Under the pieces are notes generated by a model that searched no databases, was not told the origin of the DNA, and worked only from the letters and a program-made list of their open reading frames with translations. A program made the translations under genes and the position numbers. Below are positions 973-63,173 of a stretch of 64,000 nt of DNA, piece after piece. Within the stretch, counting starts at the first letter, position 1. Each line of letters opens with the position of its first letter. The stretch comes from Octopus vulgaris (taxonomy: Eukaryota). The stretch spans positions 36,332,001-36,396,000 of the forward strand of contig OX597824.1 of the NCBI GenBank assembly GCA_951406725.2, read 5' to 3'.

Positions 973-1047
973 TGAGTAAGAAACAATTGAATTAAACCAT
1001 GAGCTGGTTTTTGGACAGAGCATAATATTTGTGAATGCTTTGCAATC

Positions 1048-1096
1048 ATGAGGCATTTGTTGGTTATATTTTATTCCTGGCATCCCCTATTCGGCA
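1048..1096 (+). CDS. Signal-peptide micro-exon A (MRHLLVIFYSWHPLFG+a) of an M4 metalloprotease; no dedicated exon 2
   Basis: ATG plus 15 further mostly hydrophobic codons + A, then GTAAGT donor; phase 1 fits acceptor AG|GT TTG of exon 2 (A+GT = Ser); homologous to modules B-E. Confidence 0.7.
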
Positions 1097-4900: not shown

Positions 4901-4949
4901 CACGGAAAAGTATTTCAGAAACTAAAATAATACAAAGTAGAAAAGGGTA

Positions 4950-6123: not shown

Positions 6124-6131
6124 TATAAATA
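6124..6131 (+). promoter_or_regulatory. TATA box of first-exon module B
   Basis: TATAAATA at the position homologous to module A. Confidence 0.6.
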
Positions 6132-6209
6132 GGATTCAGGAACGAATGTGTCAAACCTTGAGCTGGTTTTTGGACAGAGCATAAATTTTGGGAATATTCT
6201 GCAATCAAG

Positions 6210-6255
6210 ATGCATTTGTCGGTTATGCTTTATTCCTGGTATCTCCTATTTGGAA
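6210..6255 (+). CDS. Signal-peptide micro-exon B (MHLSVMLYSWYLLFG+a); nearest candidate exon 1 of M4 gene 1 (intron 6256-19692)
   Basis: ATG...GGA A|GTAAGT; in frame with acceptor at 19692, giving MHLSVMLYSWYLLFGSLLLIKTSEA-AYR (652 aa precursor). Confidence 0.72.
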
Positions 6256-7141
6256 GTAAGTATATTTTCAAGAATTTTTCATTGTATAAATTTACGTGTA
6301 TTTTAATTTTGCATTTTCTTATGATGACAAACGACTCATTTTCCACATAAAATATTTTGTAGAAGATTTGACTTATGGATTATTGTAACATCTCTGCTAT
6401 TCTCTATCTAACCGAACTTGTAATCATCCTCAACTATTTCTCCTTTGTGACTAGATCTATCAACATGTTGCTGCCTTAGTTAAGACCCATCAGCACATGA
6501 ATGAGTCTTAACTATTGTAACTTATCCATTGGTTATGTTGAATCACAAATGTTTTTCCTGTTTTATAAACCCAATTATATAGCTATACAATTGCTCCCCA
6601 GATGACTGTGTCGACACTACTTTTCTCTCCCCCTCTCTCTCTCTCTCTTGCTAACAACTTGTTCCTTTCATCTGCTTTGCCGGTTCGGTTCGTTCCTCTG
6701 CATTCCTGGTGGGCTACGTCATTATCATTCAACTGATTCAATAGGCTTGCTGTAAAAGGAAAAGGTTAATGGGTACTTGCCACTGGTTGTTAAGGATTAT
6801 GTCTTGTTGTTATACTATAAGAATAGTGGTGTAAATATCAATCACCTGACTTTTCACCTGTGCAAACGATTATCCACTCTTATTTGTTTGAGTTCTTTGG
6901 AAATCTGAGATGTATATGTTGTACCCACATCCATGCTAGGTGAATGAGTGTTAAGGAGACAACAGGAACCATGAGCTTCACCGCCAATTGATGTAATATT
7001 TTGTTCTTATTCTGAGTTAAAATCTCTGCAATTATGCAATTGACAGAAACTATATGAATCTGATCAGAAAACCAGCAGGAAATGTGTAGTAATGAGCCTA
7101 CGTGTGTGCGTGTTTGTATGTGTGTGTTTGTGTGAGTGTGC

Positions 7142-7216
<75 letters not shown>

Positions 7217-7539
7217 TATATAAATCAAACGAAGGAAAAAACAATTCCTTCAAAGGGATGTAAAACCTCCAATTCACTGGTATAATAGTTGAATACCACA
7301 GATAAAAGGGTATAATTATAATATACAAATATTAAATGAAATTGATAAATACAATTGATAAACTAAAATTTATTTACATTATAATATAATATAATATAAT
7401 ATAATATAATATAATGTAACATAACAAATCTTCAAAAACCACATATAAAGCCAACAATTTCTTTCGACTTATATACAGTAATGAAGTTATATAAATTCCT
7501 CTCTATGTATAAAAGCCTCGTCAGGGCTATGGTTAAAGA

Positions 7540-7870
7540 AAAAAAAAAACGAAATTCCTTATAAAGACTGCCAATCTGCAGAAATACTGATTCAATAATA
7601 CCTATGTTTAGAAGCACGAGCGTTAATAATTCAAATACGTAATAAGTACTATAAAAAGAAAACAAAATTCAAATGGATAAAAAAATTAAATAAAGATTTA
7701 CAAAAAAAAAAAGACGAAATTCCATGTAAGGACTGCCAAACGGCAGAAATACTGATTCAATAATACCTATGTTTAGAAGCACGAGCGTTAATAATTCAAA
7801 TACATAATAAGTACAATAAAAAGAAAAGCAAAATTCAAATGGATAAAAAGATTAAATAAAGATTTATAAC
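7540..7870. repeat. Local ~170 bp tandem duplication
   Basis: CAGAAATACTGATTCAATAATACCTATGTTTAGAAGCACGAGCGTTAATAATTC occurs at ~7579 and ~7744. Confidence 0.85.
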
Positions 7871-7994
7871 AGTCATAAAATGTTCTTATGAATCTCCAAC
7901 AACATTTATCTAAAAGTATTTTAATCGAAAATGATCACTGGCTACTGACCATTTTATAATATAATATCTATTATAATATATGTAATATATTCTT

Positions 7995-8205
7995 TTCTAC
8001 TTTAGGCACAAGGCCCAAAATTTTGGGGGAAGGAGCCAGTTGATTAGATCGACCCCAGTAAGCAACTGCTACTTAATTTATCGAACCCGAAAGGATGAAA
8101 AGCAAAGTCGACCTTGGCGGAATTTGAACTTAGAACGTAAAGACAGACGAAATACCCCTAAGCATTTCGCCCAACGTGCTAACGTTTCTGCCATCTCACC
8201 GCTTT
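7995..8205 (-). mobile_element. Cephalopod-type SINE
   Basis: Same core as 2110-2350. Confidence 0.75.
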
Positions 8206-8688
8206 ATAATATATAATATATTAAACATAAAAAAATTTATGGAGTAGAAAGTATATTTTATTTAAAATTATTATATATTAGATGAAAAAAGATAAATAAG
8301 GATATCTTTAATTCTGTCACTAAATTCTCTATTCAAATACAAAGCACGCCGATGTTAAACAAATGGATAAATTTACGTTTATTATATAACTATACCCATT
8401 TTATACATGATAAAGATAATGATATATAAATAAATATAGTATCAGAGTTTCACTTAGTTTTACAGAAGGAGAAAGATTATGTTAATCCAATATTTTTATT
8501 CTATAAATTTATATACGTATACACATTCGAAAGAATATAATGTTAGTATATCTACTAAATATTCATGGGTACTACAATAATATTCAAATATGGATAATTA
8601 TTCAAAAAGATATATAATTATATATAATGATAGTATATAACTACACTCACTTTTTTCTTACTGATATAAACATTATTCAAAATAACTA

Positions 8689-9963
8689 TCAGGTCATCCC
8701 ATAAGTTCTGTCCGATTTTACCTGTTTTAAAATTTAATGAAATTTAATAGTATTTTAGAATGTCTAATGGAATAAAATTGTTTTAATGTATTTGTGTATA
8801 TTTAAACTAATTAAATATTATTTTACAAAATAATAGAATTAAAATTTCTTTGTTTAAAATCCTTTCTAACATGGACGTATCCAAAGAGCATTTGAAGCAC
8901 ATAATGCTTTATGAGTACAAAAAAAAGGAAACTCTGCAGCCGAAGCGACTCGAAACATACACTCAGTTTATGGGAAATAATGCTTAAATGAAAGAACTTG
9001 CAGAAGAGGGTTTGCAAAATTCAGAAGTGGAGATTTCAGCCTTGAAGTTGAAGATCGAACAGCACGTCCACTTGAGTTTGATGATAAGCTCCTTGAGGCA
9101 TTACTTGGAGAAAATCCTGCATTATCAGTTAAAGAATTGGCAATAAAGCTTAGTTCAAACCATACAACTGTTCATCGTCATCTTCAACAACTTGGAAAGG
9201 TTCCTAAACTTGGAAAATGAGTGCCTCATGAATTGTCCGAAAGCAACCGCAAATCCCGAGTTGATATCTGCTCTTCTCTCCATTCTCGTGAACTCATTTC
9301 ACCCATTTTGGATAGACTTGTCACTAGTGACGAAAAATAGATCTTCTATCGAAATGTTAAACGTTGAAAACAGTGGCTTGGTAAAAGGGAAAAAGCTCAA
9401 CTACAATCAAGAAGGGAACTTCATGGGAAAAAGGTTCTTCTCTCTATCAGATGGGATTGCAAAGGAATAATTCACATTGAATTGCTACTACCTAATGCAA
9501 CAATCAATGCTCAAGTCTATTGTCAGCAATTAGAGCGTTTGAACCAAGCTTTGAAGAAAAAATGACATGCTTTAGTGAATCGAAAAGGAGTGATGTTTCA
9601 TCAGGACAATGCGCGACCCTACACTGCAAAGATTACATCACAGAAGCTCGGAGATTTTGGTTTTGAAAAAATTCCTCATCCACCTTATTCTCCCGACCTT
9701 ACTCCTTCAGACTACCATTTGCTTCGTAGTTTACAGAATCATTTGGGGGACATATCTTTCGCAAGCCTGGAGGAGGTCGAAACTGACAATTCAGAGTTCT
9801 TCGCTTTGAAACCATTGATGGGATTAAAAAGCTTGTAAATAGATGGAAGGAAGTCATAGATAATCAGAGAAAGTACATTGATGATTAAATTTTAATTAAA
9901 TATAACATTTGATTACTTGTTTTCTTTATTCAAAATTCGGACAGAACTTATGGGATGACCTGA
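8689..9963 (+). mobile_element. Full-length decayed mariner (DD34D) transposon with TIRs and TA target duplication
   Basis: TA-TCAGGTCATCCCATAAGTTCTGTCCGA...TCGGACAGAACTTATGGGATGACCTGA-TA; motifs VPHEL, HQDNARP, HPPYSPDLTPSDYHL; stops and frameshifts. Confidence 0.93.
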
Positions 9964-11017
9964 TAACAAGTAAAGATACCAGTTTACTTAGTTAATCTGA
10001 AGAAAAATTTCCGTAAATAAACTAAACAAAAATATAGAGCTACGATAATTATAAACTATATCATTTCTAAGAGAAAGAGAAAATAAGCTATAAATAAAAA
10101 AAAATATATATAATTTTACTAAGTTTTTTGAAAGGAACGAAATTAGAGTAAAGCAATAGTTATAAAATAGACGGGAAGTCGTACTTGCAATAGAAAAGTT
10201 TTAGATCACCATATGGCATTATATAAAATTATTTATTTATTATTATTGTTGTTGTTGTTGTTGTTATCATCATTAATTAATAAATTCAATTTGTATATTT
10301 ATAGATGTATAATCATTTAATATAATGAAGATAGCGTACTTAAAACTTATAATTTAAATTTAACTACGAATATAGCAATATATTTTACACCCAAGACAAA
10401 TATCTTCATTGGTACTTAACATGAAATATAAATTAATCCACTAAAAAATTTTCAGATATCCACATTAACATACTATTTTAAAATTACAAGTCTATAGTCA
10501 CAATAAAAGAAATTTGCAAATGATTCAGTATAAAAACAAAGACATATTTTGCTTCAAGCAATAAAAATTCAGTTTGAATAAAAAATTTATAACTCGTTCA
10601 GTATAATAACAAATAATTTGGCCCCTAACGCAATTACGTTAAGTAATGCTGTCACATTATACATTTAGGGAGATTTATTGATACATTTTTTATTTTATTT
10701 GTCCATTATGTAATAAACACGTGTACAAATTACATATATAAAATATATGATTACATATATAAAATATATATATATTACATATATAAAAAAAATATATATA
10801 TTACATATATAAAATATATGTACAAGTTACATATATAAAATATATAATTACATATATAACATACATGTGTAGTTTTTTTTTCATTCTCTCTCTGTTTATT
10901 TTCTCTTATTCTTTTCTGTTGAAGAGCGTGGGCTCGAAACGTAAAAAACTTTTTAATTTTCCCGAGCGTCAAACTAATACATTTGCTTGTCGTTCATACA
11001 CCTGTCTTTGTTTTTTG

Positions 11018-11435
<418 letters not shown>

Positions 11436-11439
11436 TTTT

Positions 11440-12980
11440 GATACTTTGATAGGTTTCGGCCATTATTGGCCCAGGCCATGTCTAACCTAATAGCACCACC
11501 TGGTGAAGTCTTTCAAGTCAGAATTTGGGCACTATGGCCCACTCAAGTAGAAAGTTAATGTTTACAGAGACATATCCGGGTGTAGGGGGTTTATCCGGGA
11601 TTTCTTGAAGGAATCTGTCCAAAGACTTCTTGAGCCCTATAGGGTCTGTTTCTGTTTTAATGTGTTTTGGTGTAATGTAAAGAGAGCGGGGCCAATTGAG
11701 GTGAAATAATTGTGCCGTATTGTTGTTATGAGATGAGAGTGCGATTTTTGTTTTGGGCGGATGGCACGGGGCCCAAGACTTGGATGTACCTTAAAGGTGA
11801 TGCCAACATCATTTGGGCAATGCTGATGGAATATTTTCCACATCATGCAGATGATGTAGCGCTCACGGCGACGTTGGAGAGAATAAAGTTTTAGCTTTTC
11901 TAGTCGACCCCAATAGTCGAGGCCTGTCATGCCATCTATCTTTTTTGTGATTGCCCTTTGAGGTGCTTCAACTTTTATGATACTTTGTTTTGTGTGGGGA
12001 GACCACAGTGGACAACAGTATTCAAGGTGGGGTCGGGCAAAAGTGGAGAAGAGAAGGATAATGGTGTGGATATCTCTCGACTGGAAAGTTCTGAGAATCC
12101 AGGAACACATTCTGCGGGCCATGTCAACTTTGGTGTTTATATGAGTGGCCCAGCTTATGTTGTTGTCCACAATTACTCCCAAGTCTCTGATGTTGTTGGA
12201 TGCCACGAGAGTTTCACCTGAAGGAAGGGAGTATGGGAGTTTCAGGGCATCCTCTTTTCCAAAGTGGATTAACTCGACTTTATCCTCGTTCAGCAGCATA
12301 TTGTTTTTTTCTGCCCATTGGATAACAGCTAGTAGATCTGACTGAAGGCATGTCCGGTCACTCGCCTCATTTATGACCTTCTGGAGCTTGGAATCATCTG
12401 CAAAGATTTTTATGTTGCTGTGCTTGATGATGTCATTAATGTCATTAATGTAGATGATGAAAAGAAGTGGGCCCAGCACAGTGCCTTGCGGAACGCCACT
12501 ACTGACTTTGGCTGGGCTTGATTTTAACCCTTCAACTACATGTTGAGATCTGTCTGTCAGGAAACACTTGATCCATTTCAGTAACTTTCCAGAGACACCA
12601 ATGTTGGATAGTTTTTTCAATAGGATCTTGTGATCAACCCTGTCGAAGGCCTTGCTGAAATCAAGGTAGATGACATCGGTGTTGGAGCCCTCTCCTAAAG
12701 CTCTCAAAATGTCATCAAAGTGATGCAGGAGCTGCGTTAGGCAGACCCTTCCATTACGGAACCCATGTTGGTTAGAGATCAGCCGTCTGTTGCTTTCCAG
12801 AAATTGGGTTATTCGAGATCTCACCACCCTCTCAAATACCTTGATGATATAAGAGGTGAGTGAGATCGGACGGTAGTTCACTGCAAGGGACTTGTTTCCC
12901 TTTTTGAAAACTGGGACAGAAAGTTTTTAGGAATATAGCCAGCATCCAGTGAGTTTCTCCACAGATTAGCATGGGGAGAT
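11440..12980 (-). mobile_element. 5'-truncated CR1/L2/Jockey-group LINE; reverse transcriptase ORF 11637-12881
   Basis: NYRPISLTS, YLDFSKAFDRVDH, GVPQGTVLGPLLF, FADD, DLGV, RPHLEYC; 414 aa uninterrupted. Confidence 0.92.
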
Positions 12981-13435
12981 GCAAGTTGGTGTTGACACAC
13001 CTTCAGGACACAAGCAGGGAACCTATGTATATCCGCATAAAAATATACTCATATATAGATACATATATACAGATAAATCCACATACACATACATGCATAC
13101 ATACATAAATACATGCATACATACATACATACATACATACATACATACATACATACATACATACATACAAACATATATACATATATATATATATATAGTC
13201 ACATAATCCATAAAAAAAACTAGATATACATATATATCATATATTTACGTATGCGCTGATGTCACTTAAAGATTGGACAAAATTTGGCATGGTGATGTTG
13301 TCAAGTACCTGCAGAAAATGGGTCTAGTCCCCAAGATCATTCATGCTGCCGTGGTACCTACATTAAAGAGCGATGGTCCAGATTTATCAACAGTGCAAAA
13401 GCTGACTGCTTAATCTAGGAGATGAATGGAGAGTC

Positions 13436-13800
13436 GTGAAGCTCACTCAGCTTAGATGGTTAGGTCTTCTCTCATGTATGAGTGATATCAGAATTTCGAA
13501 GCAACTACTCTTTGACCAATTCCCAACAGGAAGATCATTTAGAAGGCTACTCTTATGCTTCAAAGGCAAACTAAAAGACAATTTGAAGCGATGCAACATT
13601 CCCTTTTCTCCATTAGAAAGCAAAGCATCAGAACGCAGGACCTGGCGCCAGTCCTGCTTCACCTCAGTTCAAAGATTTGAACAAAGTCAACTTCAACATC
13701 AGGACCAACTTTGTACAAGTATGAAGGCACGCTGGCAAAACGATGCGTCCTCTAAATGAAGATCTTACCTGTCATTGTGGTTTTGTGCCGTCCACTCAAG
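13436..13800 (+). mobile_element. RTE-type LINE 3' fragment
   Basis: QLRWLG..CMSDIRISKQLLF...KDNLKRCNI...WRQ, RTE C-terminal pattern. Confidence 0.65.
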
Positions 13801-15059
13801 AAAACACAAAGTAAATGACGTAGAAACACTCAAGCAAACTGAGTCCTCAACGTGTCTATTTACCAAGAGGTTAGCAAGGCATCAGCTGGATCTGAAAAAT
13901 ATGAAAAAATCATAGCTTTAAAATGGTACCAGTTTCATCTTACTACCAATCATAGTCTAGTAGATATGAGGACTTGAAATGTGCCCAAGACTTCTGGAAC
14001 ACCCTGTAGTTTAACCATTTCGCATAGATCTAGTAGCTGAAAAATCTCTATTAAAGAACAGTAACAACTCGAAGGGATAAGAGTTTAATAGGTAAGGATA
14101 TCAAAGAAAGAAAACAAAATAATAAGAATTTATAGAAAATAAGAAATATATATAACTTACATTTAAAGAGACAGGGTATTAAACTTTGAGGTAGGGAAGA
14201 GACAAAGGTAACCCTAAGAGAGGAGCTTGTAGGTATGGGAGTAGTGAGTGCAGGTGGAGGTATTCCGACCGAAGAGATTTTATAAGTTGCAATGTTACAG
14301 GTCTTATTACATATATGATTTTATAGTTTCTAGGAGGTATATAATTAGGAGACTTACTTACATAAAAGCCAATAGAAATATATATAATATGATCAGTAGG
14401 GTAGAACATCATAGAAAGGAACAAATAGTTTAATCACCAAAAACATGATGAAGGCAAATTAAGTAGGCAGGAGTTTTCATGGGATAGTAATTACATATAG
14501 CTCATTACACACCATATCATATAGCTTATAAGATATGCAATAGAATTTAATTCCCCATATAACTTAATATACCATGATTTTATTATATATAATATTAGAG
14601 AGTAAGTTTACTACAGATACGACACCAAAATTAATTTCCACCATCAAAGTTCAAGTATGGTACCTATAATCGCTAATTTCGAAAATACTTAAATGTACGG
14701 TTGACGCTATGTAGGCATGAAACCCTTTGGTCTAATCTATTAATCAGGTTGTTCTTGTCCCTATACTTAAAAATCCCCTAAGTGACCATAGAGCACTGCT
14801 AACACCCGTATCGACTATCTCTATAAGGCTGAGCTCTCCGTATTATCCAATTTAAGGCTAAATTCGATCCCGCTTTCCTTCAGTTCCCAAATCTTGCTTG
14901 ATAAGGACGAACAATTGGCTTTGCGTTTGAGTCTAAAAGACGAGAAATGGTTATTGATACGTTTTTCATATTTATCGAACAAAGTATATATATATATAAA
15001 TTTTCTTTAGAAAATCATAGAAAGTATGGAAGTGCTCGAGACAAACCAGAGATGCTAGA

Positions 15060-15355
15060 TAATTTCAGGAAATACAAGGAAGTTCAACTCAGGCAGACTA
15101 CGATTGGTCTATAGATATACGGATTTAATAAAAAGAATTTTCTAAAACATATAGTAATACATTCAAAATATAGAGTTATAGAAATATAAAAAATATTAGA
15201 ATGTTTATTCATATTTATTTTTATATTTCTATAACTCTATATTCTGAATGTATTAATATATGTTTGAGACAATTCTTTTTATTAAATCCGTATATGTATA
15301 CACCACCAATCGTAGTCTGCCTGAGTTGAATTTCTTTCTTGTATTTCCTGAATTT
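15060..15355. repeat. Imperfect inverted repeat (~130 bp arms, short spacer)
   Basis: TTCAACTCAGGCAGACTACGATTGGT (~15083) vs ACCAATCGTAGTCTGCCTGAGTTGAA (~15305). Confidence 0.85.
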
Positions 15356-15366
15356 ATATACATACA

Positions 15367-15434
<68 letters not shown>

Positions 15435-15579
15435 TGAGTAGAAAAATGAAATATCTTTTTATGGATAATTCGTTTAACCGATACCTGGCTAGAAAATTCA
15501 CATCAGAAATAACACGGTTGAAGTTACGTGCCTAGGGCAGAGACAACGTGTTTTCGTGTGTAAATTTGTGTGTATTTTT

Positions 15580-17149
<1,570 letters not shown>

Positions 17150-17339
17150 ATCCAAACAAGAAAGCACAAAAAACACAACAACGCGAGGACGTGGAACAAA
17201 TATAGTATTATTGGACGCTCAGGAAAGAAGGATAGAAGGAGGGTTTAACGTTTCGAGCGGAGCTCTTCGTCGGAAACATAGGAGTAGGAAAGATCCAGAG
17301 AAGAGAAGACAGAGGAAAAAAAATCGCCAACGGTAAGCC

Positions 17340-18720
17340 TCTCAAGAGACAATTAGTTGATATTCTAGAGCTGCATATCTTCTTATCTCTAGTTACATGT
17401 GGTGCCAGGTACTATAAATACCCAATTCCGAGGTTCTTTGATGAAGGATATCCTTATTTAACCTTAGAACATTCATATTGTAATACTGCTTCAAAAAACA
17501 AATGATATGGAAAGAAGAGTATGATGGTCGAGCTTTCTGCAAAACATCAAAACCTATTAAGAAGTAATCTTTTAATCTAAAAATAAATATACAAGAACCC
17601 AATGCATAATATCGTAGCTTGCTTGATAAATCTGAGAGTGTCTTACTACATATGATCATAGGCATCACGTTTTCTAAATACATTAGCTATTTGCAAAATA
17701 AACTATTAAGGACAATTTTAAGAATTACAAAATCGCTGTACATACATGTAATTACTGATAAAACCAAAACCTTATTTGCGCTCGATGGATATATATAAAA
17801 TTTCATCATCATGTAACCGAACTGCAACTTCAAATTGGAAAATAAGAGTGCACTTCAGAAGATCAATGACCAATACCTAAACTTTGTTGGAGATCTAAAA
17901 GTAAGATGATAGGACTGATCGTTATACCCTTAACCCTCCTCCATCACACAAACCTTAGTTTGAAATCTCATAAGCTGAACTTCCTCAATAAACCCTTAAT
18001 CAGGTTGGCCTGCCCCAACAAATCCGAACTAGAACTTATCATTAACAATATTTTAGTTAGACTTTTCCCAATAGTAAGGGACCAAATAAATTTAATCTTT
18101 GGAACAGAACGGATGTGGTTTATCCCCACTTCCCAAAACAAAACAAATACTTTGTTTCTCCAGTTTGACATTACCAATTATTACAAACCAGTTTCCCATT
18201 TTTGTGAGTAAATCGGTACCTTTCCTCTCACTCAGATACAGATGTTATAGTAATGGCATGAAATTACCTTATATACTTTATCAACATAAGAGGATCTAGA
18301 AATTCTATTAAGGACTACTTCGACATTCCAATGGGATATTTGTATTTTGTTCAAGTTACCAACATTGTACATCTTACTTTTATAATGAATTAACATGCAT
18401 TCCTTAGCTAGGAATGATTGCTATAAGTACGAAGTTCTTTTCGTAGCTACCAAATATATTCGAATTCCAGTTTAGAGCAAACCCAGAAAGCCCGCCATAA
18501 ATTCTTTAACATATATAAACTTTGTGTTTCTATCAAAAATAGCACTGCATTAACTAACTTTTTAGATGTTACTCTAGGCGTAAACCCTGACTCATACTAC
18601 CCTTACCATAAAAATAATGAATACTTCCATTATATTAATGTCAAATCCAATCACCCTAGATCTGTTTTAAATAGCGTTATCAGTGGTGTTTCTATTACAA
18701 TCTCCTACCTTTACATTAAC
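17340..18720 (+). mobile_element. Highly degenerate Penelope-like RT remnant
   Basis: Remnants FDITNYY, PMG, NFLDVTL, YINVKSNHP. Confidence 0.55.
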
Positions 18721-19692
18721 AGTTGATCAACAGCTAATTGTTCTTTTCTATTGCAGATTATTTAGCCAAGAAAAATAATTATGTTATACAATAGAGTGTT
18801 TGGTATGAAGCAGAATTTATATGAATATTGAAATAAAGCATAAATGTCATTCTGTTGGAATTCAGATAAACAAAATGCAATACTACTCTATATTTATAAT
18901 TCTTAAACATAAAACTATAAATTTGCATTTTTAAAGATTCTTACATCATATTTATATTCCCATAACTGCCGAATAAGTCTTACACTCATCAGGGAACAAT
19001 GGCTTTAGTAACCTAATGTACTACTCTACACGAAATTATATAATTGCATCTCAAAGATTCTAGCATCAAGTATATGCCCATAAATGACTTATAAGTCATA
19101 CACTAATCAAGGTAATAATTTTCAGGTTTTTCACTTTTAATAATACATTTGATAGCTTTTTGTTATAATCATTGTAAGTCAATGATGAATCGCTTGAAGG
19201 GACATATGAAGTAAAAAATACTGGAATGCAACTTAAAAAACAACGTCGAATATAACCAGAATGCATTCAAATCATCAGCAAAGTTATCCTACACCAAAAA
19301 TGTACAGACCTTAGTTAACTTGTAGTTTTCAGAAAGATGTTGTTGTTTTACTAAAAGGATATACACATCCATTCACTTAAAATTAGTCATTCCATCTAAC
19401 AAATCACCTCCCTATTCCACCAAACATTAAATTAATTATGGATGAATTTGTTCATGCTGAAACGCGTCAGACTCATGTATTTCTTTTAGTGAGCAATATA
19501 TTTTAAATTATAAGCTTATATTTGTATTAATTTGAATTGAAAACTAGTTCAATGCTTTTCCAAATAGATACAGGCCTAACCCTGCTGTTTATTCACCATG
19601 TATGAATGTATTGTCAAAAAAATTAGTCTCCATCGTAAAGAAAAACTCCTAATGGTTCTGTTATTAATAATCGTAATGTTTTCATTTTTTAG

Positions 19693-21605
19693 GTTTGTTG
19701 CTGATAAAGACATCTGAAGCTGCTTATCGTGTTGATGCCCATGAAAGAGCAAGGAGGATGGTTTATCATCCTTCAGCTCCGTTTCAGCGGCGTCATTTAG
19801 ATAAAGCTGAAGTGACAGTCAGAGATCTTCTTGGTTTGAAGGAGTATGAAGAAGTTGAAGAGTCAAACCGTATCAAAACAGTTGAAGGCACAGAAGTTTT
19901 ACGCTTACAAGAGAAGTTCTTAGGTGTTCCTATTTTTGATGCTTCATTAACTGTTACAGAAGATAAAGATGGACATTTGACTGGTGATGCAACAGGTACA
20001 CTTATTCAAGGAATTGAAGATGATATTACAAATGTAAAACCAAAGCTTTCCAAATCAGATGTCTTTGATATTGCTTTTAAAGCAGAGGGAGATGAGATTT
20101 ACGCAAATAGTATCGAACCAGAATATGAAATTATGATTTTCATGGATGAAAATGACAAACCTCGATTAGCATACTATATTAATTATCGAATAGAAAATGA
20201 AAAAGTTATCAAACGGCCTACGTTTGTCATTGATGGTAACACTGGAGAAATACTATTGAAATATAACAATTTAAATACAATTTCCACTGTTCTGACTGGT
20301 TCCGGTGGTAATGAAAAATCAGGAATATACAAATTTAGTGACAAAAATCACAAAGCTTTTTTAACTCAGATTGGTGAAATGTGTTTCCTGGAAAATAATT
20401 ATGTGAAGGTTATAGATATGCAAAACAGTTTTGAGAAAGTCTCTCTTAATACAGACCCTATTGATTATGTTTGTGACGTTGGTTTTAATGATAGTGCCAA
20501 TGCAGCGATATCTCCAGCACTTGATGCTTTTTATCATGGTAGTATGGTATCTCAGATGTTTCAGGAATGGTATAATACTTCAATACTAAACAAACAAGCT
20601 ATATTGCGTGTTCATTATGCGAAAAATTACGAAGGTTCATACTGGGATGGGAAATATTGCACATTTGGCGATGGCCATACACGCTTTTATCCTTCAACAG
20701 TCGCTGATGTTGTTGCACATGAATTTGCTCATGGCTTCACAGAACAACACTCCGGATTGCTTTACTTAAACCAGTCTGGATCTATAAATGAGGCTTTTTC
20801 TGATATAACAGGAGAAGTCGCTGAAGCTTATATAGATAAAAATGACTGGTTAGTTGGCTTCTATATCGCGAAAGATAAGAAATCATACAGATTTATGTCA
20901 AACCCATCCTTAGACAATAAATCTGTAAGTCATGTAGATAACTTCAAAGCAAGTATGAATCCCCATCATGGAAGTGGCATTTATAATTTTATGTTTTACT
21001 ACATTGTGCACGAATTAAAAATGGATATCATGGAAGCTTACCGAGTTTTCCTTATTGCCAATGAAATATATTGGCATCCTCTTACAGATTTCACTTCTGG
21101 GGCTTGTGATATGCTGAAAGTTGCCTATGATCTTGGGAAAGATCTAACCCCCTTTATTAAAGCCTATGAAATTGTGGGAATTAAACCATGTGATGTAGAG
21201 AAACATATTCGAAGATTGACATTGAACAGAACAACCTCAGGTATTAGCGTGTCAGTTAACAAAAACCCAGTCTTTGATTTTGTTTATCCACGCTGGGCTT
21301 GGAATATTACAATTACTGCCACTAGTATGTATGGCATGAATGGCAAAGTTCATATTAGGGTATCAATGAACAATATGCTAACAGAAGGAGATGGTTCTGA
21401 TCCTGTTACATTGTTAGCTGAAGGCACATCAGAACTGAATTTGGGAAAGCCTAAAGGAGATAAATTTTTCTTCATGTTGTCTCCGGAATCTAGAGAAAAT
21501 TTGGAAAATGTTAGTTTACGTGTTACTTATTGGTGTGATCCTAATTTTGTTTCCGAGACATTTATTGAAGATTTTTTGCACCGGGAAATGTGTATTAAGG
21601 ATTAA
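19693..21605 (+). CDS. M4 (thermolysin/elastase/vibriolysin-type) zinc metalloprotease, gene 1, large exon 2 (end of signal peptide, FTP/PepSY propeptide, catalytic domain, C-terminal extension)
   Basis: 636-codon open frame with no ATG start, preceded by TTTTCATTTTTTAG acceptor; HEFAH (20718-20732), GSINEAFSD, PHHGSG, FGDG..FYP, GSGGNEK, RPTFVIDGNTGEIL. Confidence 0.95.
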
Positions 21606-25603: not shown

Positions 25604-26086
25604 GGATCTTTTCGGTTTGAACGGCAGTTTTTTCTAGCGGTGTCATATGAAATTGCCACCCATAATTATGACCCTAGTATCGATCTACTGCATTTCAATC
25701 TATTTTCGGGTTAGGGTTAGGGGGAAGGGTATCTTTTTTCCTTCACAAATGTAAATAAACCCAATCTGTTTCTTAAACGAGGGACATATTCATACGGCAC
25801 AGAATGTTTTTTTTACCTCAATAGGGTACTCTTACGCCACCCCCATACTATTACGCCACCCCCATACTCTTACGCCACTCCCATACTCTTACGCCACTCC
25901 ATTGGTTGAAATTGCAGAAATTGAAGAAGAAAAAAAACAACAAATATCTTACAAACTATAGAATTTTCTCAATAAAGCCAAGAGAAAAAGATGTTTTATA
26001 AACACATTCTACCAGTATACGAAGTTTAAAACTTTTTGGTTACCTAGAAATTATGTTAAAAACTGCTGTTCAAACCGAAAAGATCC
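25604..26086. mobile_element. MITE with TIRs and 8-bp TSD (Merlin-like GG...CC ends)
   Basis: GTAATTGC-GGATCTTTTCGGTTTGAACGGCAGTTTTT...AAAAACTGCTGTTCAAACCGAAAAGATCC-GTAATTGC. Confidence 0.85.
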
Positions 26087-35935: not shown

Positions 35936-35984
35936 ATGAAACGTTTGTGGGTTATATTTTATTTCTGGCATCTCTTATTTGACA
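35936..35984 (+). pseudogene. Degenerate micro-exon C (MKRLWVIFYFWHLLFD+a); donor mutated to GAAAGT and TATA lost
   Basis: Homologous to modules A/B/D/E over ~35480-36080; GT to GA at 35985-35986; TATA region deleted. Confidence 0.7.
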
Positions 35985-37879: not shown

Positions 37880-39590
37880 AAAGTATTAATGATTTGCCAA
37901 CGAAAAAATACGAGTTGGCATGGTGTTATTGAAAAACTGATTACATTAAATGATAGTCTACAACAGTTATATCAAGAGGAAAATAATATGATCAGTGTAT
38001 GTGCTGATTTTTCAAAACGCTCAAACGAATGTTTGATACCATATAATCATCTGTTACCAAGTTCAGAAGAAATTTTCGTGAAGTTGAATTGAAGAAAACT
38101 TTTTTCAAAATTGGATCTATCTGAAGCATACCTGAAGGTACAAGTTGATAAAGAATGTTCAAAACTATTAACGCTAAAGGATTGTATAAATTCAATTGAC
38201 TTCATTTTGGTATAAAGGTAGCACCAAGCATTTTCCAACAAGCTATGAACACTGTTCGCGGGTTCGGATTTCGCTACATCGTACCTTGACGATGTACTCA
38301 CCAAAAGGGACTCTGGTTGCCGGCATGCTGAACATGTTAAAATATCTTCGAAAATATATAAGATTATGGATTTAAGCTCAGCGAAGAAAAGTGTGAATTC
38401 TTTATGTCAAGAATATTGCATTTAGGGCAAATTATCAATGAAAATGGTGCAGACCAGACCCGTGAAGGGCGAGTGCAATAAAAAATATACCTTCCCCGAC
38501 AATCATTACAACGTTACAAGCATTTTGGGGGCTCGCAAATTACTACCAGGTATACATACCGAAGATGCATGATTTAAGAGCACCCCTGAATAACTTGTTT
38601 AAAAAGTCGCAAAGTGAAACTGGTCGGACAAGTGCCAAAACATTTTGAAGAAATGAAAAACATTTTAACGTCGGAATTGTCGTTGTCACATTTTAATCCG
38701 AATTCAGAAATAGTAGTGGCTTCACACGCTAGTGAAAGTGGTACTGGAGCAGTGATTTTGCAGAAATATGAAGATTGTAGCCTGAAAACTGTAGCTCATG
38801 CTTCGCATTCCTTATTGCCGGCTAATGAAAGTTGCAGTGAAATAGAGAAGGAAGCATTAGCCATCATATTTGCTGTACAAATATTCCATAAATTGATATA
38901 TGGAAGAAGATTCTGTTTGCAGACAGACCACCGTCCATTATTGTCGATCTATGGATAAAAAAAAAAAAGAGGGTATCCCCACACATACAACCAACAGATT
39001 GCAGCGCTGGGGAACGATCCTACTAAATTATGACTTCAAGATGAAATATTTGTCATCTACAAAATTGTGAGGTGCAGATTGACAATCGAGATTAATACCA
39101 AAATATAATGAACCACTAGAAGACACAGTGATAGCAGCGTTAAGAGCCGAAAATGAAATAAATATATGTGCATCGTTGTGTGTTAATTACCTTTCACATT
39201 GGAGGAAATAAAAATTAAAGCAGAAGCGGATGAGTTTATCATGAAAAGAAAAAATAGTGATATCAAAAGAAACAAATAAGAAAATACGTGTGGCTGGACG
39301 TAACACAAATTCGAATTTGTATTCGATACATGATAATGTGCTTATGTATGCACGGAGGGTCGCAATGCTTGTCTCACTACAAAATCGAATGTTAAAGGAA
39401 TTCCACACAGGACATCCAGGAATTTCTAGGATGAAGTCACTTATGAGGAGTTATGTTTAATGGCCGCAAATGGACAAGATATTGAGACGTTGGTAAAATC
39501 CTGTAGAGATTGTGCTATTACAGCGAAATCAGCACCTATAAAATTTCAGCCTTGGCTCAAGACTGATATTCCGTGGACCAAGCCACTCTT
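37880..39590 (+). mobile_element. Decayed Ty3/Gypsy pol (RT, RNase H, integrase zinc finger)
   Basis: CADFS, KLDLSEAYL, FGIKVAPSIFQQ, YLDDV, IEKEALAIIFAV..FH..IYGRRF.LQTDHRPL, HTGHPGISRMKSLMRSYV; many stops and frameshifts. Confidence 0.88.
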
Positions 39591-45468: not shown

Positions 45469-45478
45469 TATATAAATA
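45469..45478 (+). promoter_or_regulatory. TATA box of module D
   Basis: TATATAAATA ~85 bp upstream of ATG 45554. Confidence 0.6.
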
Positions 45479-45553: not shown

Positions 45554-45602
45554 ATGAGTCATTTGATGGTTATATTTTATTCCTGGCATCTCCTATTTGG
45601 CA
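45554..45602 (+). CDS. Signal-peptide micro-exon D (MSHLMVIFYSWHLLFG+a), exon 1 of M4 gene 2 (intron 45603-50424)
   Basis: ATG...GGC A|GTAAGT in phase with acceptor 50424, giving MSHLMVIFYSWHLLFGSLLLIKTSDA-AYR (656 aa precursor). Confidence 0.8.
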
Positions 45603-47720
45603 GTAAGTATATTTTCAAGAATTTTTTATTATTGAATTTACATGTATTTTATCTTTATATTTTCTGATTATGACAAATTACTTGTTTTCTACATGAAACA
45701 TTTTATAGAACTTAGGTTTTACTTATGGATATTATTTCAATACTTATATGATAGACAATGGAAAAAAATGAAGGGTAAAGTTGCTATCACCGTCGAGATA
45801 CGAATGCTGGTTTTAAATATATGATATTGATCACAGCAAAATATTTATTACTCATCTCTAGCATTGCAGTCAGGAGTCTGCTGAGGCACATACACTCAAA
45901 CACACGCTCGTTCGCTTTATTTTGGTCGCACTGCCTTCCAGACGTGTGCCAAAAGTTGGCCCTCTTGTGTTTATGTATCCAAACTTACTTTGATTGCTCC
46001 AGTTTTCTTTCTTGTGTTACAGAGTAAACATGGTTGCTCAACTAAAAGTGTTCACCAAGGAAGAATAGAGATCTGTGACCTATTTTTTCTGGTCTGAAGA
46101 TGTGTTAGGGGCTGAAATTCATTGCAGGCTTTAGTACGATACAGAGATATCACTCTACAACTTAGAAGTTCAATAATGGCAAGTCAAGCATGAACTTTGC
46201 TGCCAATGAACATCATTTGAATGTGTAGCGCCCTCTTTTTTCTTTCATTGAAGTACCTTACAAAAAACAGACCACAAAACTTGTTTGTGACAAGATCATA
46301 TTTTACAAAATTGGCGTTGAATAAATCCACTTTTCATATATTTTAGCTTTGCCATTATTTTAAACATGTTCCAAACGACACCTTGCTAATTTTGAATATT
46401 TGGAATCAAATATGATTTCAGCTGTATTTGACTGAATACACTTGTTGCTGATAAATATTGTTGCTTTCTCGCTTGTGTTCTGAGTTTTGTTCTAGACTGC
46501 GTTGTATTACTGTCTCTATAATTTCGCACAACTGCTTTAAAGTTTGATTAGCTCGGTGAAAAGCTCGGTGAAATCTGCAAATTCACTTGTTGATTTTTTT
46601 GGTATGGTTCCATATATCGTCAATTTGTTTTAGTTAAGATCGAAATTTTAGAGATCTCTTTTGGTTCTTATAGGATATCTGTGTTTTTGTCTTCCCACAT
46701 GAGTCAGACTTTGCTGACGTTTTTCTTCTTTGGATGGTAAATGTGAACATAGAACTAAGTTTTTTTTTCATGTGAAAAGAAATATAAAGAAAAGATAAAC
46801 TCAAAATATGCTTGAAATTCTTAATAGATATATTTCTATTTACTTAAATGGTTTCAAAATGTCATAATTTCTAAATGTTTTGTGAACTGGAGTGATGCAG
46901 AATTGGAGGTATATTTTTTATAATAATATACATACATGCATACAAACTTATATACATATATGCATACATACATACATACATACATACATACATACATACA
47001 TACATACATACATCATCACTGGAACTGTAAAAATCTGTAAAATTTTTTAGAAGTTTATGATTGAAAAAAGACCATATCTAGATATGTAAGTATATGCATG
47101 AGAAGGCATACGTAAAGCAAAAAATACAAATCTGCACGTACGCGTACATACAAACATACATACATACATACATACATACATACATACATACAAAAATACT
47201 CTGTTTATGTTGAAGTTCCAATGAAGGACCCTTGGATGCTGGGGGACAAACACAGACACGCAAACATATACACACACATAGCTAAGAGATATAAAATCCG
47301 TATGCCGTCTTCAGTATAATATACCCGAAAAAAATATAAATTCAAATTTTATCAAGTGGCCAGTGTATAAAAATATAAATTCAAATTTTATCAAGTGGCC
47401 AGTGTATAATAAAAACCATATAGGGACAATTAATACTGATATATAATTATACAGATACAATTATAGTAAATGGTTCTGATAAACATCAACACGCTAGAAG
47501 TAGACATCAAATAGCTCTAAACTATCTACTACCAGTCAACTTACCGCACCGAATTCCTTCTTCATCTCACTCTCTCTCCTATTTTTTCTTCATTCTTCCC
47601 TTCTCCCTACATTTATATACCTCTCTCATACTGTACTCTCTACACATTCTGATTGAATCTTCTTTGTGTCAAATGGTACCTCCTTGCAACAATATAACCT
47701 TGAATCTAATCAAGATATAC

Positions 47721-47807
47721 TTGGCCTGAAGAGTAGCCCGCGGTATACGCCTCACTTGGAATTTACCATTTCTGAAATTCCACTGGCTATGAAACATATG
47801 TAGCTGG
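47721..47807 (+). ncRNA. Hammerhead ribozyme-like motif in the gene 2 intron
   Basis: TTGGC-CTGAAGA-GTAGCC...GGCTAT-GAAA-CATATG-TA-GCTGG; stem I relies on G-U pairs. Confidence 0.55.
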
Positions 47808-47841
47808 GATTTTTCCTACTCCATTCCATAACTCTTGTATC

Positions 47842-47928
<87 letters not shown>

Positions 47929-48012
47929 GTGTGTGTGTATATATATATATGTATACAGAGAGAGAGAGAGAGGGGCGGAGAGAGGAGAAAGAGATAGATA
48001 TATACGTATATG

Positions 48013-49210
48013 TACTGGGTCGGGAAAAAATTTGAGCCGGTTTTTATGTAACATTCATTAACAATACTTAGATATTTGTACACACCTTTATTCAACCACA
48101 TACTTGCCAATTTGTTCCACTACTTTTCGTCATCTTTGAGGCAGCATCATGATCCCATCCTCCTAGAGCTTAGCATTTTCCTGGGTCAATGACTGATCTA
48201 AGTGGCTATTATAAATGATAATCCGAAGGTGCAAGGTCAGGTGAGTACGATTTGTTGGGCAGGACATCCAACCCAAACTGCACCAATTTCTGCCTGGTCT
48301 GCAAAGAATCGTGTGGTCTAGCGTTGTCCCTTTTGGTTGGCCAATTCTGGACGTTTTTCATCAATTGCCACCTTTAAACAGTCTAATTGGAAACAATAAT
48401 AGTCTGAATTTAACGTCTGATTTTGTGGAAGTAGCTTATAATACACAGTACCCTTCCAATCCCACCAGATACAGAGCATCACCTTCTTCGAATACAGACC
48501 AGTTTTGGAGAAATTGAAGGTGGTTCATCTCGTTTTCACCAGGACTTCTTTCGTTTTATGTTGTTGTAAATAATCCATTTCTCATCACACGTGACCACTC
48601 TTTTCCAAAGTGTATCAATTTTGTTTCCTCAGATTAGAGAACCGTAGATGGAAATGCGCTCGATTAAATATTTTTCTGTTAAGCTTTGAAGCACCCAAAC
48701 ATCGTAGCAATTCATATAACCAAGTGTTTTAAATATTTTATAACGCTCGCATGAGATACGTGGATAATCTCTGCGATGTCTCGTACTGTGTAACATAGGT
48801 TATTGTATTTTCATAAAAGTCTCAATTTGTTCATTATCAACGACTGCAGGCCTGCCAGAATGCTCACAATCATCTAGGTCAAAATTCTTAGTTCTAAACC
48901 TAGCGAACGACTTACAGAGAGTAGTTTCAGATATAACACCATCTCCGTAAACAGCGCATATCTTCTTTGCTGTTTGTCCAGCGTTTTTGCCTCCCCGGAA
49001 ACGAAAGAGCGTTAAATGAGGAATATGAATTTCATGCTCTTTCTTTTTCAATTTTATCGTAAGAACAGTAGAAGTAAATAATCCGCACAAATTTAAAATA
49101 GCAAAATGCGTTGAGATCCACTTTTCTAGAAAATATACTCGTCATTTTCTGTCACGTGATAAAACATATCACCTATTGAAGAACGCGACGAACTTTTTTA
49201 CTAACCCAAT
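48013..49210 (-). mobile_element. Decayed mariner transposon
   Basis: N-terminal HTH remnant HIPHLTLFRFRGGKNAGQTAKKICAVYGDGVISETT...RFRTKNFDLDD.EHSGRP; degenerate TIR-like ends. Confidence 0.8.
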
Positions 49211-50424
49211 GTATGAATATTTGTATCCATATATTTGTATGTATATGTATATAGATCTGGGTGTGTGGGTATACTTTTCATGTGATAATGTATACATATA
49301 TTTCCACTGATAGATCTAATTACAGTTTCTTTGCATCTAAGTGTACCTTTCCTTATAAAGCCTTAACATTAATGTTATTTCAAGGGAGTGGGGCCTTGAA
49401 TTTCATTCCCTTCACACATGTGTTTGTCTTCTCACTGATAATGCTTTTGGGTGTATATGCATAAATGTAGATGTTTCTTCCCAAATAAATTTCACTTCAT
49501 ATTTCAGGCTCTGATGAAGCAATGTGGTGTTTGTTTCGCAGGAACTCAACTATGAGTCTACATCATCTTACTGCAGAAACAGTTGTACAGTAATGACGTT
49601 CACAATACAATTGTTTATCATTCTGTCGTCTGATTTTTGATACTCTGACGATTAGTGGGCCTGGGCTGGTAGCTGAACTTACAAATTCGTCGCAGAAAAA
49701 GGTGTCACAGTAATTTAACTTACCTGTGGATACAGGGAAGAATGACTTTAGAAATCTAAGAGAAAGATGTCATTGCTAGGAATAATGGATTTACTGACAT
49801 AAATCTTACATACCTTTGTTGAGATCAATGGCTCGGGAAGTGAATTTCTGGGGAACAGAATGTAATACTTAACTCAATTTATGCATCAAATGCCATTTAT
49901 AATTTATGCAGTGGTGTACACATGTAAATGAGTTACAATAGAATCTTTATAGAAAATATTTGTAATGTGTTTGGAATTGTTCACTTTTATGTTCTGTTGA
50001 AATATTACATAAACGATGTGCAGACCTTAGTTAACTTGTAGTTTCCAGATACTGATTGTTGTTTTACTAAAAGGACACTCGCTTCCATTCACTTAAAACT
50101 AATCACTCCTTGTAACAAATCACCTCCCTATTTCATCAAATATTAAATTAACTGCATGAACAAACTGAATTTCTCTTTGGATGAAATTATTCGCACTAAA
50201 ATAGGTTTGACTGATGTAATTTTTTTTATTGGACAATATATTTGAAATTATAAGCTCATATTTCTATTAATTTGAATTGCTAATTTAATTCTTTTTTAAA
50301 TAGATACAGACCTATTTCTGTTGTTCAGTCACTATGTTTGTATGTATTGTTAAAAAATTAGTCTTCTTTTAAAAAAATCCTGATGTTGCTGTTATTAATG
50401 ATTTTAATGCTTTCATTTTTTTAG

Positions 50425-52346
50425 GTTTGTTACTGATAAAGACATCTGACGCAGCTTATCGTGTTGATGCCCATGAAAGAGCAAGGAGGATGATTTATCA
50501 TCCCTCAGCTCCGTTTCAGCGGCGTCATTTAGATAAAGCTGAAGTAACAGTCAGAGATCTTCTTGGTTTGAAGGAGTATGAAGAAGTTGAAGAGTCAAAC
50601 CGTATCAAAACAGTTGAAGGCACAGAAGTTTTACGCTTACAAGAGAAGTTCTTAGGTGTTCCTGTTTTTGATGCTTCATTAACTGTTACAGAAGATAAAG
50701 ATGGACATTTGACTGGTGATGCAACAGGAACATTTATTCAAGGAATTGAAGATGATATTACAAATGTAAAACCAAAGCTTTCCAAATCAGATGTCTTTGA
50801 TATTGCTTTTAAAGCAGAGGGAGATGAGATTTACGCAAATAGTATCGAACCAGAATATGAAATTATGATTTTCATGGATGAAAATGACAAACCTCGATTA
50901 GTATACAATATTAATTATCGAATAGAAAATGAAATAGTTATTAAACGGCCTACATTTGTCATTGATGGTAACACTGGAGAAATACTGTTGAAATATAACA
51001 ATTTAGATACAATTTCCAGAGTACTGACTGGTTCCGGCGGTAATGAAAAATCAGGAATATACAAATTTAGTGAGAAAAATCACAAAGCTTTTGTAACTCA
51101 AATTGGTGACATGTGTTTCCTTGAAAACAATTATGTAAAGGTTATAGACATGCAAAACAGTTTTGAGGCAGACTCTAATAATACAGATCCTATGTATTAT
51201 CTTTGTGACGTTGGTTTTAATGATAGTGTCAATGCAGCGTCATCTCCAGCACTTGATGCTTTCTATTACGGCAGTGTAGTATCTCAAATGTTTCAGGAAT
51301 GGTATAATACTTCAATACTAAACGAACAAGCTATATTGCGTGTTCACTTTGGAGAAGATTTTGAAAACGCATTTTGGGATGGGACATATTGCACATTTGG
51401 TGATGGCTATAAATACTTTTATCCTTTAACAGATGCTGATATTATCGGGCATGAACTTGCCCATGGCTTCACAGAACAACACTCTGGATTGCTTTACTTT
51501 AATCAGTCTGGATCTATGAATGAGGCTTTTTCTGATATGACTGGAGAGGTCACTGAAGCTTATGCAAGTGGGAATGACTGGTTAATTGGCTTCAACATCA
51601 TGAAAGATGAGGAAGCATTGAGATTTATGGCAGACCCATCCCTGGACAATATATCTATAAGTCATGTAGATAACTTCACAGAAAATATGAATCCCCATCA
51701 TGGAAGTGGTATTTATAATTTTATTTTTTACTACATTGTGCAGGAATTAAATATGGATATCAAGGAAGCTTATCGAGTTTTCCTTATTGCCAATGAAATA
51801 TATTGGCATCCTCATACAGATTTCACTTCAGGGGCTTGTGATACTTTGAAGGTTGCCTATGATCTTGGGAAAGATCTAACCCCCTTTATTAAAGCCTATG
51901 AACTTGTGGGAATTAAACCATGTGATGTAGAGAAACATATTCGAGGATTGCCATTTAACAAAACAGTCTCAGGTATCACAGTGTCAGTTAAAACAAACCC
52001 AGTCTTTGATTTTGTTTATCCAAGCTGGGCTGGGAATATTACAATTACTGCCACTAGTATGTGTGGCAAAGTTCATATTAAGGTATCAAAGAGCAATATG
52101 ATAACAGAGGAAGAAGGTTCAGATGGTTCAGATCTAGTTACATTATTAGCTGAAGGCACATCAGAATTGAATTTGGGGAAGCCTGAAGGACATAAGTTCT
52201 TTGTCAAATTATCTCCAGAATCTACTGAAAATTTACAGGATGTTAGTATACGTGTTACTTATGGCTGTGATCCAGATTATGTTGGAGAGTCATATATGAG
52301 TTTTATAGTTCAAATGATGATTTGTAATGAAGATTATGGGTATTAA
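50425..52346 (+). CDS. M4 (thermolysin/elastase/vibriolysin-type) zinc metalloprotease, gene 2, large exon 2
   Basis: 639-codon frame after TTTCATTTTTTTAG acceptor; ENAFWDG, FGDG..FYPL, HELAH (51450-51464), GSMNEAFSD, ALRFM, PHHGSG. Confidence 0.95.
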
Positions 52347-63124: not shown

Positions 63125-63173
63125 ATGAGGCATTTGATGGTTATATTTTATTCCTGGCATCTCCTATTTGGCA
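63125..63173 (+). CDS. Signal-peptide micro-exon E (MRHLMVIFYSWHLLFG+a); predicts a third M4 paralogue beyond the window
   Basis: Intact ATG, frame and GTAAGT donor; flanks near-identical to module D. Confidence 0.75.

What the first reader, a model, noticed from the sequence alone, without database searches (positions are those of the whole stretch)
45554..50460. Hidden 49-bp first exon completes the signal peptide across a phase-1 intron
The ORF track starts both genes at a TTG. Upstream micro-exons end A|GTAAGT and the acceptors read AG|GT-TTG, so splicing creates Ser and MSHLMVIFYSWHLLFG-S-LLLIKTSDA/AYR, a hydrophobic leader with an S-x-A cleavage site. The only predicted coding intron lies inside the signal peptide, while the whole bacterial-like body is intronless, as expected if a transferred ORF recruited a host promoter and leader exon.
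Basis: partly seen in the sequence, partly recalled or inferred. Interest (0 to 1): 0.75.

Follow-up and report, generated by a model that had tools for sequence, protein, structure and literature searches.

The report
Ancient leader intron in octopus proteases
The small first exon is real and spliced, but public octopus protein records already contain it; it starts the predicted secretion signal of bacterial-type zinc proteases that molluscs likely acquired from bacteria long ago, and the intron behind it is likely a single very old insertion into a signal the bacterial gene probably already carried.

Summary
Observation confirmed. Gene B has a 49-nt coding first exon (45554-45602), a 4,822-nt phase-1 intron and an intronless M4 peptidase body; gene A has 46 nt. 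Contigs of 2 of 4 runs join 45602>50425. The exon is not hidden: both spliced proteins equal public Octopus vulgaris records, and this family is published as horizontally acquired (PMC6011040).

New here is the age. Five of five distant octopus paralogs (31-44% identical) have a 49-nt first coding exon in phase 1. Abalone isoform pairs and a bivalve-like contig place a junction 10-11 codons before the cleavage site, against 9 in octopus.

The 'recruited host leader exon' reading is possible but not needed. 206 of 220 bacterial relatives have their own signal-like leader of the same length, followed by the same A-x-R-V-D motif, and phase-1 introns are known to be enriched at signal peptides (PMC1626468). 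Best reading: ancient transfer, then one early intron gain inside the bacterial signal (about 50%); exon capture about 30%. Interest modest.

The parts
45471..45478 (+). TATA-like box (TATAAATA) of gene B, about 80 nt before the ATG
   Evidence: sequence; present in most aligned exon-1 copies; function inferred
45554..45602 (+). Gene B first coding exon, 16 codons + 1 nt: n-region and most of the h-region of the predicted signal peptide
45603..50424 (+). Gene B phase-1 intron, 4,822 nt, GT..AG; holds a mariner HTH fragment at 48800-49141 (-)
50425..52346 (+). Gene B exon 2: last 9 signal residues, FTP and PepSY propeptide, M4 catalytic domain (HExxH, E383), C-terminal beta domain; no intron
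6124..6131 (+). TATA-like box of gene A
   Evidence: sequence; function inferred
6210..6255 (+). Gene A first coding exon, 46 nt, phase 1
6256..19692 (+). Gene A phase-1 intron, 13,437 nt; holds a LINE reverse transcriptase fragment at 11637-12926 (-)
19693..21605 (+). Gene A exon 2, intronless M4 body, 82% identical to gene B
1048..1096 (+). Extra promoter/exon-1 copy with intact ATG, 49 nt and GTAAGT donor but no body of its own; possible alternative first exon of gene A
   Evidence: use in transcripts not seen
35936..35984 (+). Degenerate exon-1 copy upstream of gene B; donor reads GAAAGT, probably dead
63125..63173 (+). First coding exon (49 nt) of the next tandem copy, whose body lies beyond the window (G000:C11:36400387 on; 99.8% identical to gene B, frameshifted)

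Best explanation
These are two-exon genes for M4 zinc proteases, predicted to be secreted, whose ancestor likely came from a proteobacterium before molluscs diversified and likely gained one phase-1 intron inside the signal peptide it already carried. Splicing joins the 49-nt (gene B) or 46-nt (gene A) coding exon to the body (shown). The 26- or 25-residue leader would then send the precursor into the ER and be cut after Ala (inferred). The FTP-PepSY propeptide would fold and inhibit the enzyme until it is removed (inferred from LasB/vibriolysin, recalled). H359, H363 and E383 would bind zinc with E360 as general base (residues shown invariant; activity untested). The most likely role is extracellular protein digestion (about 60%; family members were amplified from hepatopancreas cDNA). 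Later steps: an old duplication gave two clades; in octopus the whole promoter-exon-intron-body unit, and sometimes the promoter-exon module alone, was duplicated in tandem.
For: Splicing. Family and fold: Pfam M4, M4_C, FTP above cut-off; best solved relatives LasB E 5e-87, ProA and MCP-02, against thermolysin 7e-32; model matches ProA, vibriolysin MCP-02 and LasB at rmsd 1.4-2.1 A. Age: chiton, gastropods, bivalves and cephalopods form one group (19 rows, SH-aLRT 100) sister to a second octopus clade that also holds a scallop protein; octopod-only clade rejected p-AU 9e-40, cephalopod-like-only clade p-AU 0.004. One old intron: 11 of 11 bodies with an N-terminus have a pyrimidine-rich YAG in phase 1, 29 nt before the first propeptide codon. 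5 of 5 distant paralogs have a 16-codon + 1 nt exon, four of them backed by public N-termini (P0173 40/40, P0177 40/40, P0175 35/40, P0279/P0417). 3 of 3 abalone isoform pairs diverge 11 residues before the cleavage site. L090 has a phase-1 intron 11 codons before it. Donor had a leader: 206 of 220 bacterial relatives, median 25 residues; +1..+6 consensus A-x-R-V-D-L against animal A-x-R-V-D-A. Phase-1 excess at signal peptides is known (PMC1626468, passages).
Against: Nothing seen separates intron insertion from capture of a host exon, because signal peptides keep no alignable trace over this time. The junction is 9, 10 and 11 codons from the cleavage site in octopus, abalone and L090, so parallel gains are possible; the abalone phase is inferred from protein only. 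The N-terminal alignment between the two octopus clades was gap-free in 2 of 3 MAFFT runs and shifted in the third, the motif used was written to fit, and the register of L007 is ambiguous (29 or 20 nt). The animal-like group was one branch for 29 of 30 rows (SH-aLRT 99, root chosen by me) but fell into an open polytomy with more rows; P0030 and P0287 sit among bacteria. The signal test on bacteria is a crude heuristic of my own.
Confidence: 0.5

Rival explanations
1. Leader-exon capture: the transferred ORF landed behind a host promoter and phase-1 leader exon, and a cryptic acceptor inside the bacterial signal let the host exon replace its first two thirds.
For: A bacterial ORF needs a host promoter and start, and one capture gives all of it. 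The only octopus coding intron is this one. Phase-1 leader exons are plentiful in animals, and one published reading of that excess is exon shuffling (Vibranovski et al. as cited in PMC1626468). First exons are modular here: extra copies in octopus, alternative ones in abalone.
Against: The donor needed no new signal. The junction lies inside the h-region, 9-11 codons before the cleavage site, and total length equals the bacterial median. No donor gene is seen (9 of 9 matches beside M4 genes; low power).
Confidence: 0.3
2. No transfer into animals at this point: an old eukaryotic M4 gene was kept in molluscs and relatives and lost elsewhere, and the body lost its introns by recombination with cDNA, sparing the 5'-most intron.
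For: The family is far older and wider than octopus. L090 has a second intron. Monophyly and root are not secure. Reverse-transcription-based loss spares 5' introns (recalled).
Against: Named animal hits in the lists seen are all molluscs, plus one record labelled Siedleckia; none is a vertebrate, arthropod, cnidarian or fungus. Closest relatives are proteobacterial (33-38%). The second intron is absent from both octopus clades, so one gain in bivalves is the shorter account. PMC6011040 found these genes nested among bacteria.
Confidence: 0.12
3. Several separate transfers or separate intron gains produced similar two-exon genes by convergence, since phase-1 sites in signal peptides are favoured.
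For: P0030 and P0287 group apart from the other animal-like rows; junction distances differ by 1-2 codons between classes; known phase-1 excess.
Against: The same 49 nt from the ATG in octopus paralogs of 31-44% identity; the two mollusc clades are sisters (98).
Confidence: 0.08

Closest known systems
Horizontally acquired Zn-metalloproteinases ZnMP1-7 of Octopus bimaculoides (Liu et al. 2018, PMC6011040; whole main text read; supplements not read; companion paper PMID 29738840 not held)
   Same: Same family: their ZnMP6, XP_014782361.1, is P0279, the orthologue of paralog L007. Called HGT from bacteria and amplified from hepatopancreas cDNA.
   Different: The text I saw says nothing on exon structure, signal peptides or other molluscs. 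The unseen companion paper may.
Peptidase family M4, LasB/vibriolysin/ProA group
   Same: Signal, FTP and PepSY propeptide, HExxH with third ligand in NEAFSD, four conserved cysteines, same fold.
   Different: Eukaryotic two-exon gene. Dibasic sites in the propeptide start ([KR]R in 38 of 41 animal-like against 59 of 220 bacterial). The C-terminal beta domain has no Pfam PPC hit.
Phase-1 introns at secretory signal peptides (Nielsen and Wernersson 2006, PMC1626468; 12 passages seen; Tordai and Patthy and Vibranovski et al. only as cited there)
   Same: Phase-1 intron near codon 17-20 of a secreted animal protein, the commonest case; the same two explanations (insertion or shuffling) are debated there.
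   Different: Here the gene is of likely bacterial origin, so the intron must postdate the transfer, and it lies in the h-region rather than at the cleavage site.
Public gene models CAI9730014.1 (P0159) and CAI9730013.1 (P0004), O. vulgaris; XP_029642704.1 and XP_029642806.1, O. sinensis
   Same: P0159 and P0004 are letter for letter the spliced products of genes B and A.
   Different: Nothing in the protein; the records seen carry only generic names.

Membership tests
Peptidase M4 (thermolysin family) | Peptidase_M4 and Peptidase_M4_C domains above curated cut-off | tested here: met
   88.8 and 93.9 bits against cut-offs 22.4 and 24.4 (gene B)
Peptidase M4 (thermolysin family) | HExxH plus third zinc ligand Glu, and active-site His and Arg | tested here: met
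   H359, E360, H363, E383, R416, H441 (precursor numbering) invariant in 24 of 24 rows
Peptidase M4 (thermolysin family) | Propeptide of FTP and PepSY type | tested here: met
   FTP above cut-off, PepSY below (E 7e-4); fold match to the MCP-02 propeptide, E 9e-13
Peptidase M4 (thermolysin family) | Thermolysin-like fold | tested here: met
   model mean pLDDT 83.7; ProA, MCP-02, LasB at rmsd 1.4-2.1 A
Peptidase M4 (thermolysin family) | Zinc-dependent endopeptidase activity and autoprocessing | not testable with these tools
   needs an assay
Secreted precursor with cleavable signal peptide | Hydrophobic N-terminal leader, small residues at -3 and -1 | tested here: met
   Ser at -3, Ala at -1, best 9-residue hydropathy 2.79; no SignalP available
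Horizontally acquired animal gene | Integrated in the host genome, spliced, host-like composition | tested here: met
   100-Mb contig with host repeats in the introns; spliced contigs; GC 0.36, GC3 0.26
Horizontally acquired animal gene | Nested within a bacterial clade in a rooted tree | tested here: inconclusive
   29 of 30 animal-like rows on one branch beside proteobacteria, root chosen by me; open polytomy; no donor lineage resolved
Gene formed by capture of a host leader exon | First exon homologous to an exon of an unrelated host gene | tested here: inconclusive
   9 of 9 genome matches lie beside M4 genes; too old for a DNA search to decide
Gene formed by capture of a host leader exon | Donor gene lacked the function that the exon supplies | tested here: not met
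   206 of 220 bacterial relatives carry a signal-like leader

The most novel reading that the evidence does not exclude
A single bacterial protease gene was domesticated in the ancestor of molluscs (perhaps of molluscs and annelids) by splicing onto a host promoter and leader exon. That junction has stayed at the same place for over 500 million years as the only coding intron in octopus, and the promoter-exon module has since been duplicated to give alternative first exons: a fossil of the first step of a gene transfer.
Probability: 0.25. Interest if true: 0.55.

Novelty: already known. Interest (0 to 1): 0.3.

Why it matters
The exon and the transfer are already on record, so the finding itself is ordinary. 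What these calls add is a date and a marker. The signal-peptide intron is shared by paralogs that split before bivalves and cephalopods did, so the 'octopus' transfer is at least mollusc-wide and its first intron came very early. The family could serve as a test case for how transferred genes get their first intron and for the insertion-versus-shuffling debate on signal-peptide introns, because the intron-free ancestor is known. In practice, ORF callers miss this exon and start such genes at a TTG or GTG behind the acceptor (P0164, P0425).

Tried and rejected
Run search: no RNA holder listed (the kind of the runs is a guess). The alternative acceptor 17 nt downstream gives a closed frame: rejected. 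Reading through the intron gives no in-frame ATG before the propeptide: rejected as a start. Hydrophobicity ranking alone does not find the true exons. Bacterial contamination: rejected (spliced, on a 100-Mb contig, orthologues in named molluscs). Octopus-recent origin: rejected. Donor lineage: 78 loci from named bacterial genomes, best segments 29-37%, none standing out (not put in a tree). The metagenome scan gave 79 loci, of which only L064 (transcript-like) and L090 looked animal. One search had a 4-nt offset error for the exon-1 positions; corrected. Trees left out near-duplicates and fragments: 90 of 238 rows, 60 chosen rows, 127. The Atlas gave bacterial M4 clusters only. No earlier scan findings. 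Paper searches found no paper on the exon structure or mollusc-wide range of this family; listings only were seen except PMC6011040 (main text), PMC1626468 (passages) and PMC12773714 (one passage, irrelevant). The companion Gene paper and the supplements of PMC6011040 were not seen and may bear on the novelty claim.
Full report
Setting. The window is G000:C11:36332001-36396000 of a 2.8-Gb genome. Its two long ORFs, 19677-21605 (gene A) and 50373-52346 (gene B), are M4 peptidases with FTP and PepSY propeptide. The closest proteins are named Octopus, then Argonauta, bivalves and gastropods (37-43%), then proteobacteria (32-39%).

Observation. Gene B has an ATG at 45554, a donor A|GTAAGT after 49 nt and an acceptor AG|GT at 50425; joining gives 656 aa. 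Gene A has 46 nt (6210-6255) and gives 652 aa. Contigs of 2 of 4 runs join 45602>50425 over GT..AG; 1 of 4 runs shows gene A's exon as a loose end at 19693. The gene-B junction cannot be tied to gene B alone, since the next copy is 99.8% identical. Both spliced proteins are identical to public O. vulgaris records, so the exon was missed by the ORF track only. A conserved TATA-like box about 80 nt upstream suggests a real exon of about 100 nt. The pattern alone is weak evidence: 13 and 11 candidates pass the same scan, and the true exons rank 5th and 3rd.

Local anatomy. The exon-1 region has 9 matches in the genome, 8 in the C11 tandem cluster and 1 upstream of paralog L006. The cluster has five full-length bodies (one frameshifted) and fragments. 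In the window, 1048-1096 is an intact extra copy, 35936-35984 has lost its donor, and 63125-63173 belongs to the next gene. Coding exon lengths in the close copies run 28, 46, 49 and 52 nt, always in phase 1.

Age of the intron. Of 16 genome matches, 11 include the N-terminus, and all 11 have a pyrimidine-rich YAG in phase 1, 29 nt before the first propeptide codon as I read it. For five distant paralogs on C3, C9, C28 and C29 (31-44% identical) I scanned 10-20 kb upstream. Candidates ranked 1, 1, 1, 2 and 3 were each 16 codons + 1 nt with a GTGAGT donor, and four match public N-termini. So the ATG-to-intron distance is 49 nt across the deepest split. Cautions: the motif was written to fit, L007's register is ambiguous, and one of three alignments shifted the second clade. 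Outside octopus, 3 of 3 abalone isoform pairs share all but their N-terminal piece and meet 11 residues before the cleavage site, as two alternative first exons would; the phase is inferred. L090, a metagenome contig 59% identical to a Mercenaria protein and broken by stops, has a 22-nt first coding exon (262-283), a 402-nt phase-1 intron 11 codons before the cleavage site, and a second phase-1 intron of 162 nt in the propeptide.

Tree. The window's genes group with squid-like, chiton, gastropod and bivalve proteins (19 rows, SH-aLRT 100); the second octopus clade is sister (98) and includes a scallop protein. Octopod-only and cephalopod-like-only clades are rejected. The duplication, and so most simply the shared intron, predates the bivalve-cephalopod split (over 500 million years, date recalled). 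A further unnamed animal-like group holds a record labelled Siedleckia, a parasite of polychaetes (recalled), which hints at annelids but does not show it. Against a clean story: P0030 and P0287 sit among bacteria, the larger tree leaves the animal-like groups in an open polytomy, and the root on ProA-like rows was my choice although ProA is as close structurally as vibriolysin.

Capture or insertion. A crude test finds a signal-like leader in 206 of 220 bacterial relatives, median cleavage after residue 25, followed by A (199), R (90), V (91), D (97), L (152) at +1, +3, +4, +5, +6; the animal proteins read A-x-R-V-D-A after 19-30 residues. The donor thus came with a leader, and exon 2 keeps its cleavage context and last 9 residues. 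A phase-1 intron in a signal peptide is the commonest case in secreted animal proteins and has been explained both by insertion at proto-splice sites and by exon shuffling (PMC1626468). I put insertion at 0.5, capture at 0.3, vertical descent with intron loss at 0.12 and parallel events at 0.08. No call can settle the first two.

Function. All catalytic residues and four cysteines are invariant in 24 of 24 rows, and the model matches ProA, vibriolysin MCP-02 and LasB. Secretion, propeptide removal and activity are inferred from those enzymes. Family members were amplified from hepatopancreas cDNA (PMC6011040), so extracellular digestion is the likeliest role; untested.

What is known. PMC6011040 lists seven O. 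bimaculoides ZnMPs as horizontally acquired; one is the orthologue of L007. Ten searches found nothing on the exon structure or wider range, but the companion paper and supplements were not seen.

Verdict. Real, correctly predicted and already annotated; an ordinary kind of intron in a known transferred family. The deep conservation is a modest addition. Interest 0.3.

Noticed in passing
window 50427-52343 and 19695-21602; L002, L003: Among the tandem copies the propeptide is far more alike at synonymous sites (pS 0.008-0.09) than the catalytic domain (0.08-0.27), which suggests gene conversion of the propeptide part while the enzyme part diverges.
   Followed up: partly
G000:C11:36400387-36402302 (L005, L008, L192): Next tandem copy is 99.8% identical to gene B but has a 1-nt deletion that shifts the frame late in the catalytic domain: young pseudogene or assembly error.
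   Followed up: partly
window 5-1961 against 4316-7104: The promoter, exon 1 and intron start were duplicated as a module without a body (77-79% identity). O. sinensis isoform X2 of gene A (P0162) starts at an internal Met, hinting at another first exon.
   Followed up: partly
proteins P0159 and relatives, residues 26-75: Animal-like members have dibasic sites at the propeptide start ([KR]R 38 of 41, RxxR 28 of 41) far more often than bacterial ones (59 and 22 of 220): possible added convertase sites.
   Followed up: partly
L090:833-994; P0282: Second phase-1 intron in the propeptide of a bivalve-like gene; the N-terminus of P0282 looks like a read-through of an intron at the same place.
   Followed up: partly
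P0030, P0172, P0287: Animal-looking leader and dibasic propeptide, but bacterial-like body (P0030 with a PPC hit), placed among bacteria: a second transfer or a slow-evolving early branch.
   Followed up: no
P0289, P0446, P0437, P0459, P0463: N-termini look like ORF read-throughs of a phase-1 acceptor 6-10 codons before the cleavage site in unnamed animal-like lineages; DNA not seen.
   Followed up: no
G000:C9:114561067-114562770 (L013-L015); C11:36311919-36312266 (L012): A frameshifted paralog that still has an intact exon 1 and acceptor, and an isolated propeptide fragment.
   Followed up: partly
window 11637-12926 (-), 15887-16288, 22965-23426 (-), 38590-38958, 48800-49141 (-): Mobile-element remains: LINE reverse transcriptase, weak GIY-YIG, C2H2 zinc fingers, retrotransposon RNase H, mariner HTH.
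   Followed up: partly
window 24246-24980 and 25827-25902: G-rich 19-bp minisatellite with an inverted piece nearby.
   Followed up: no
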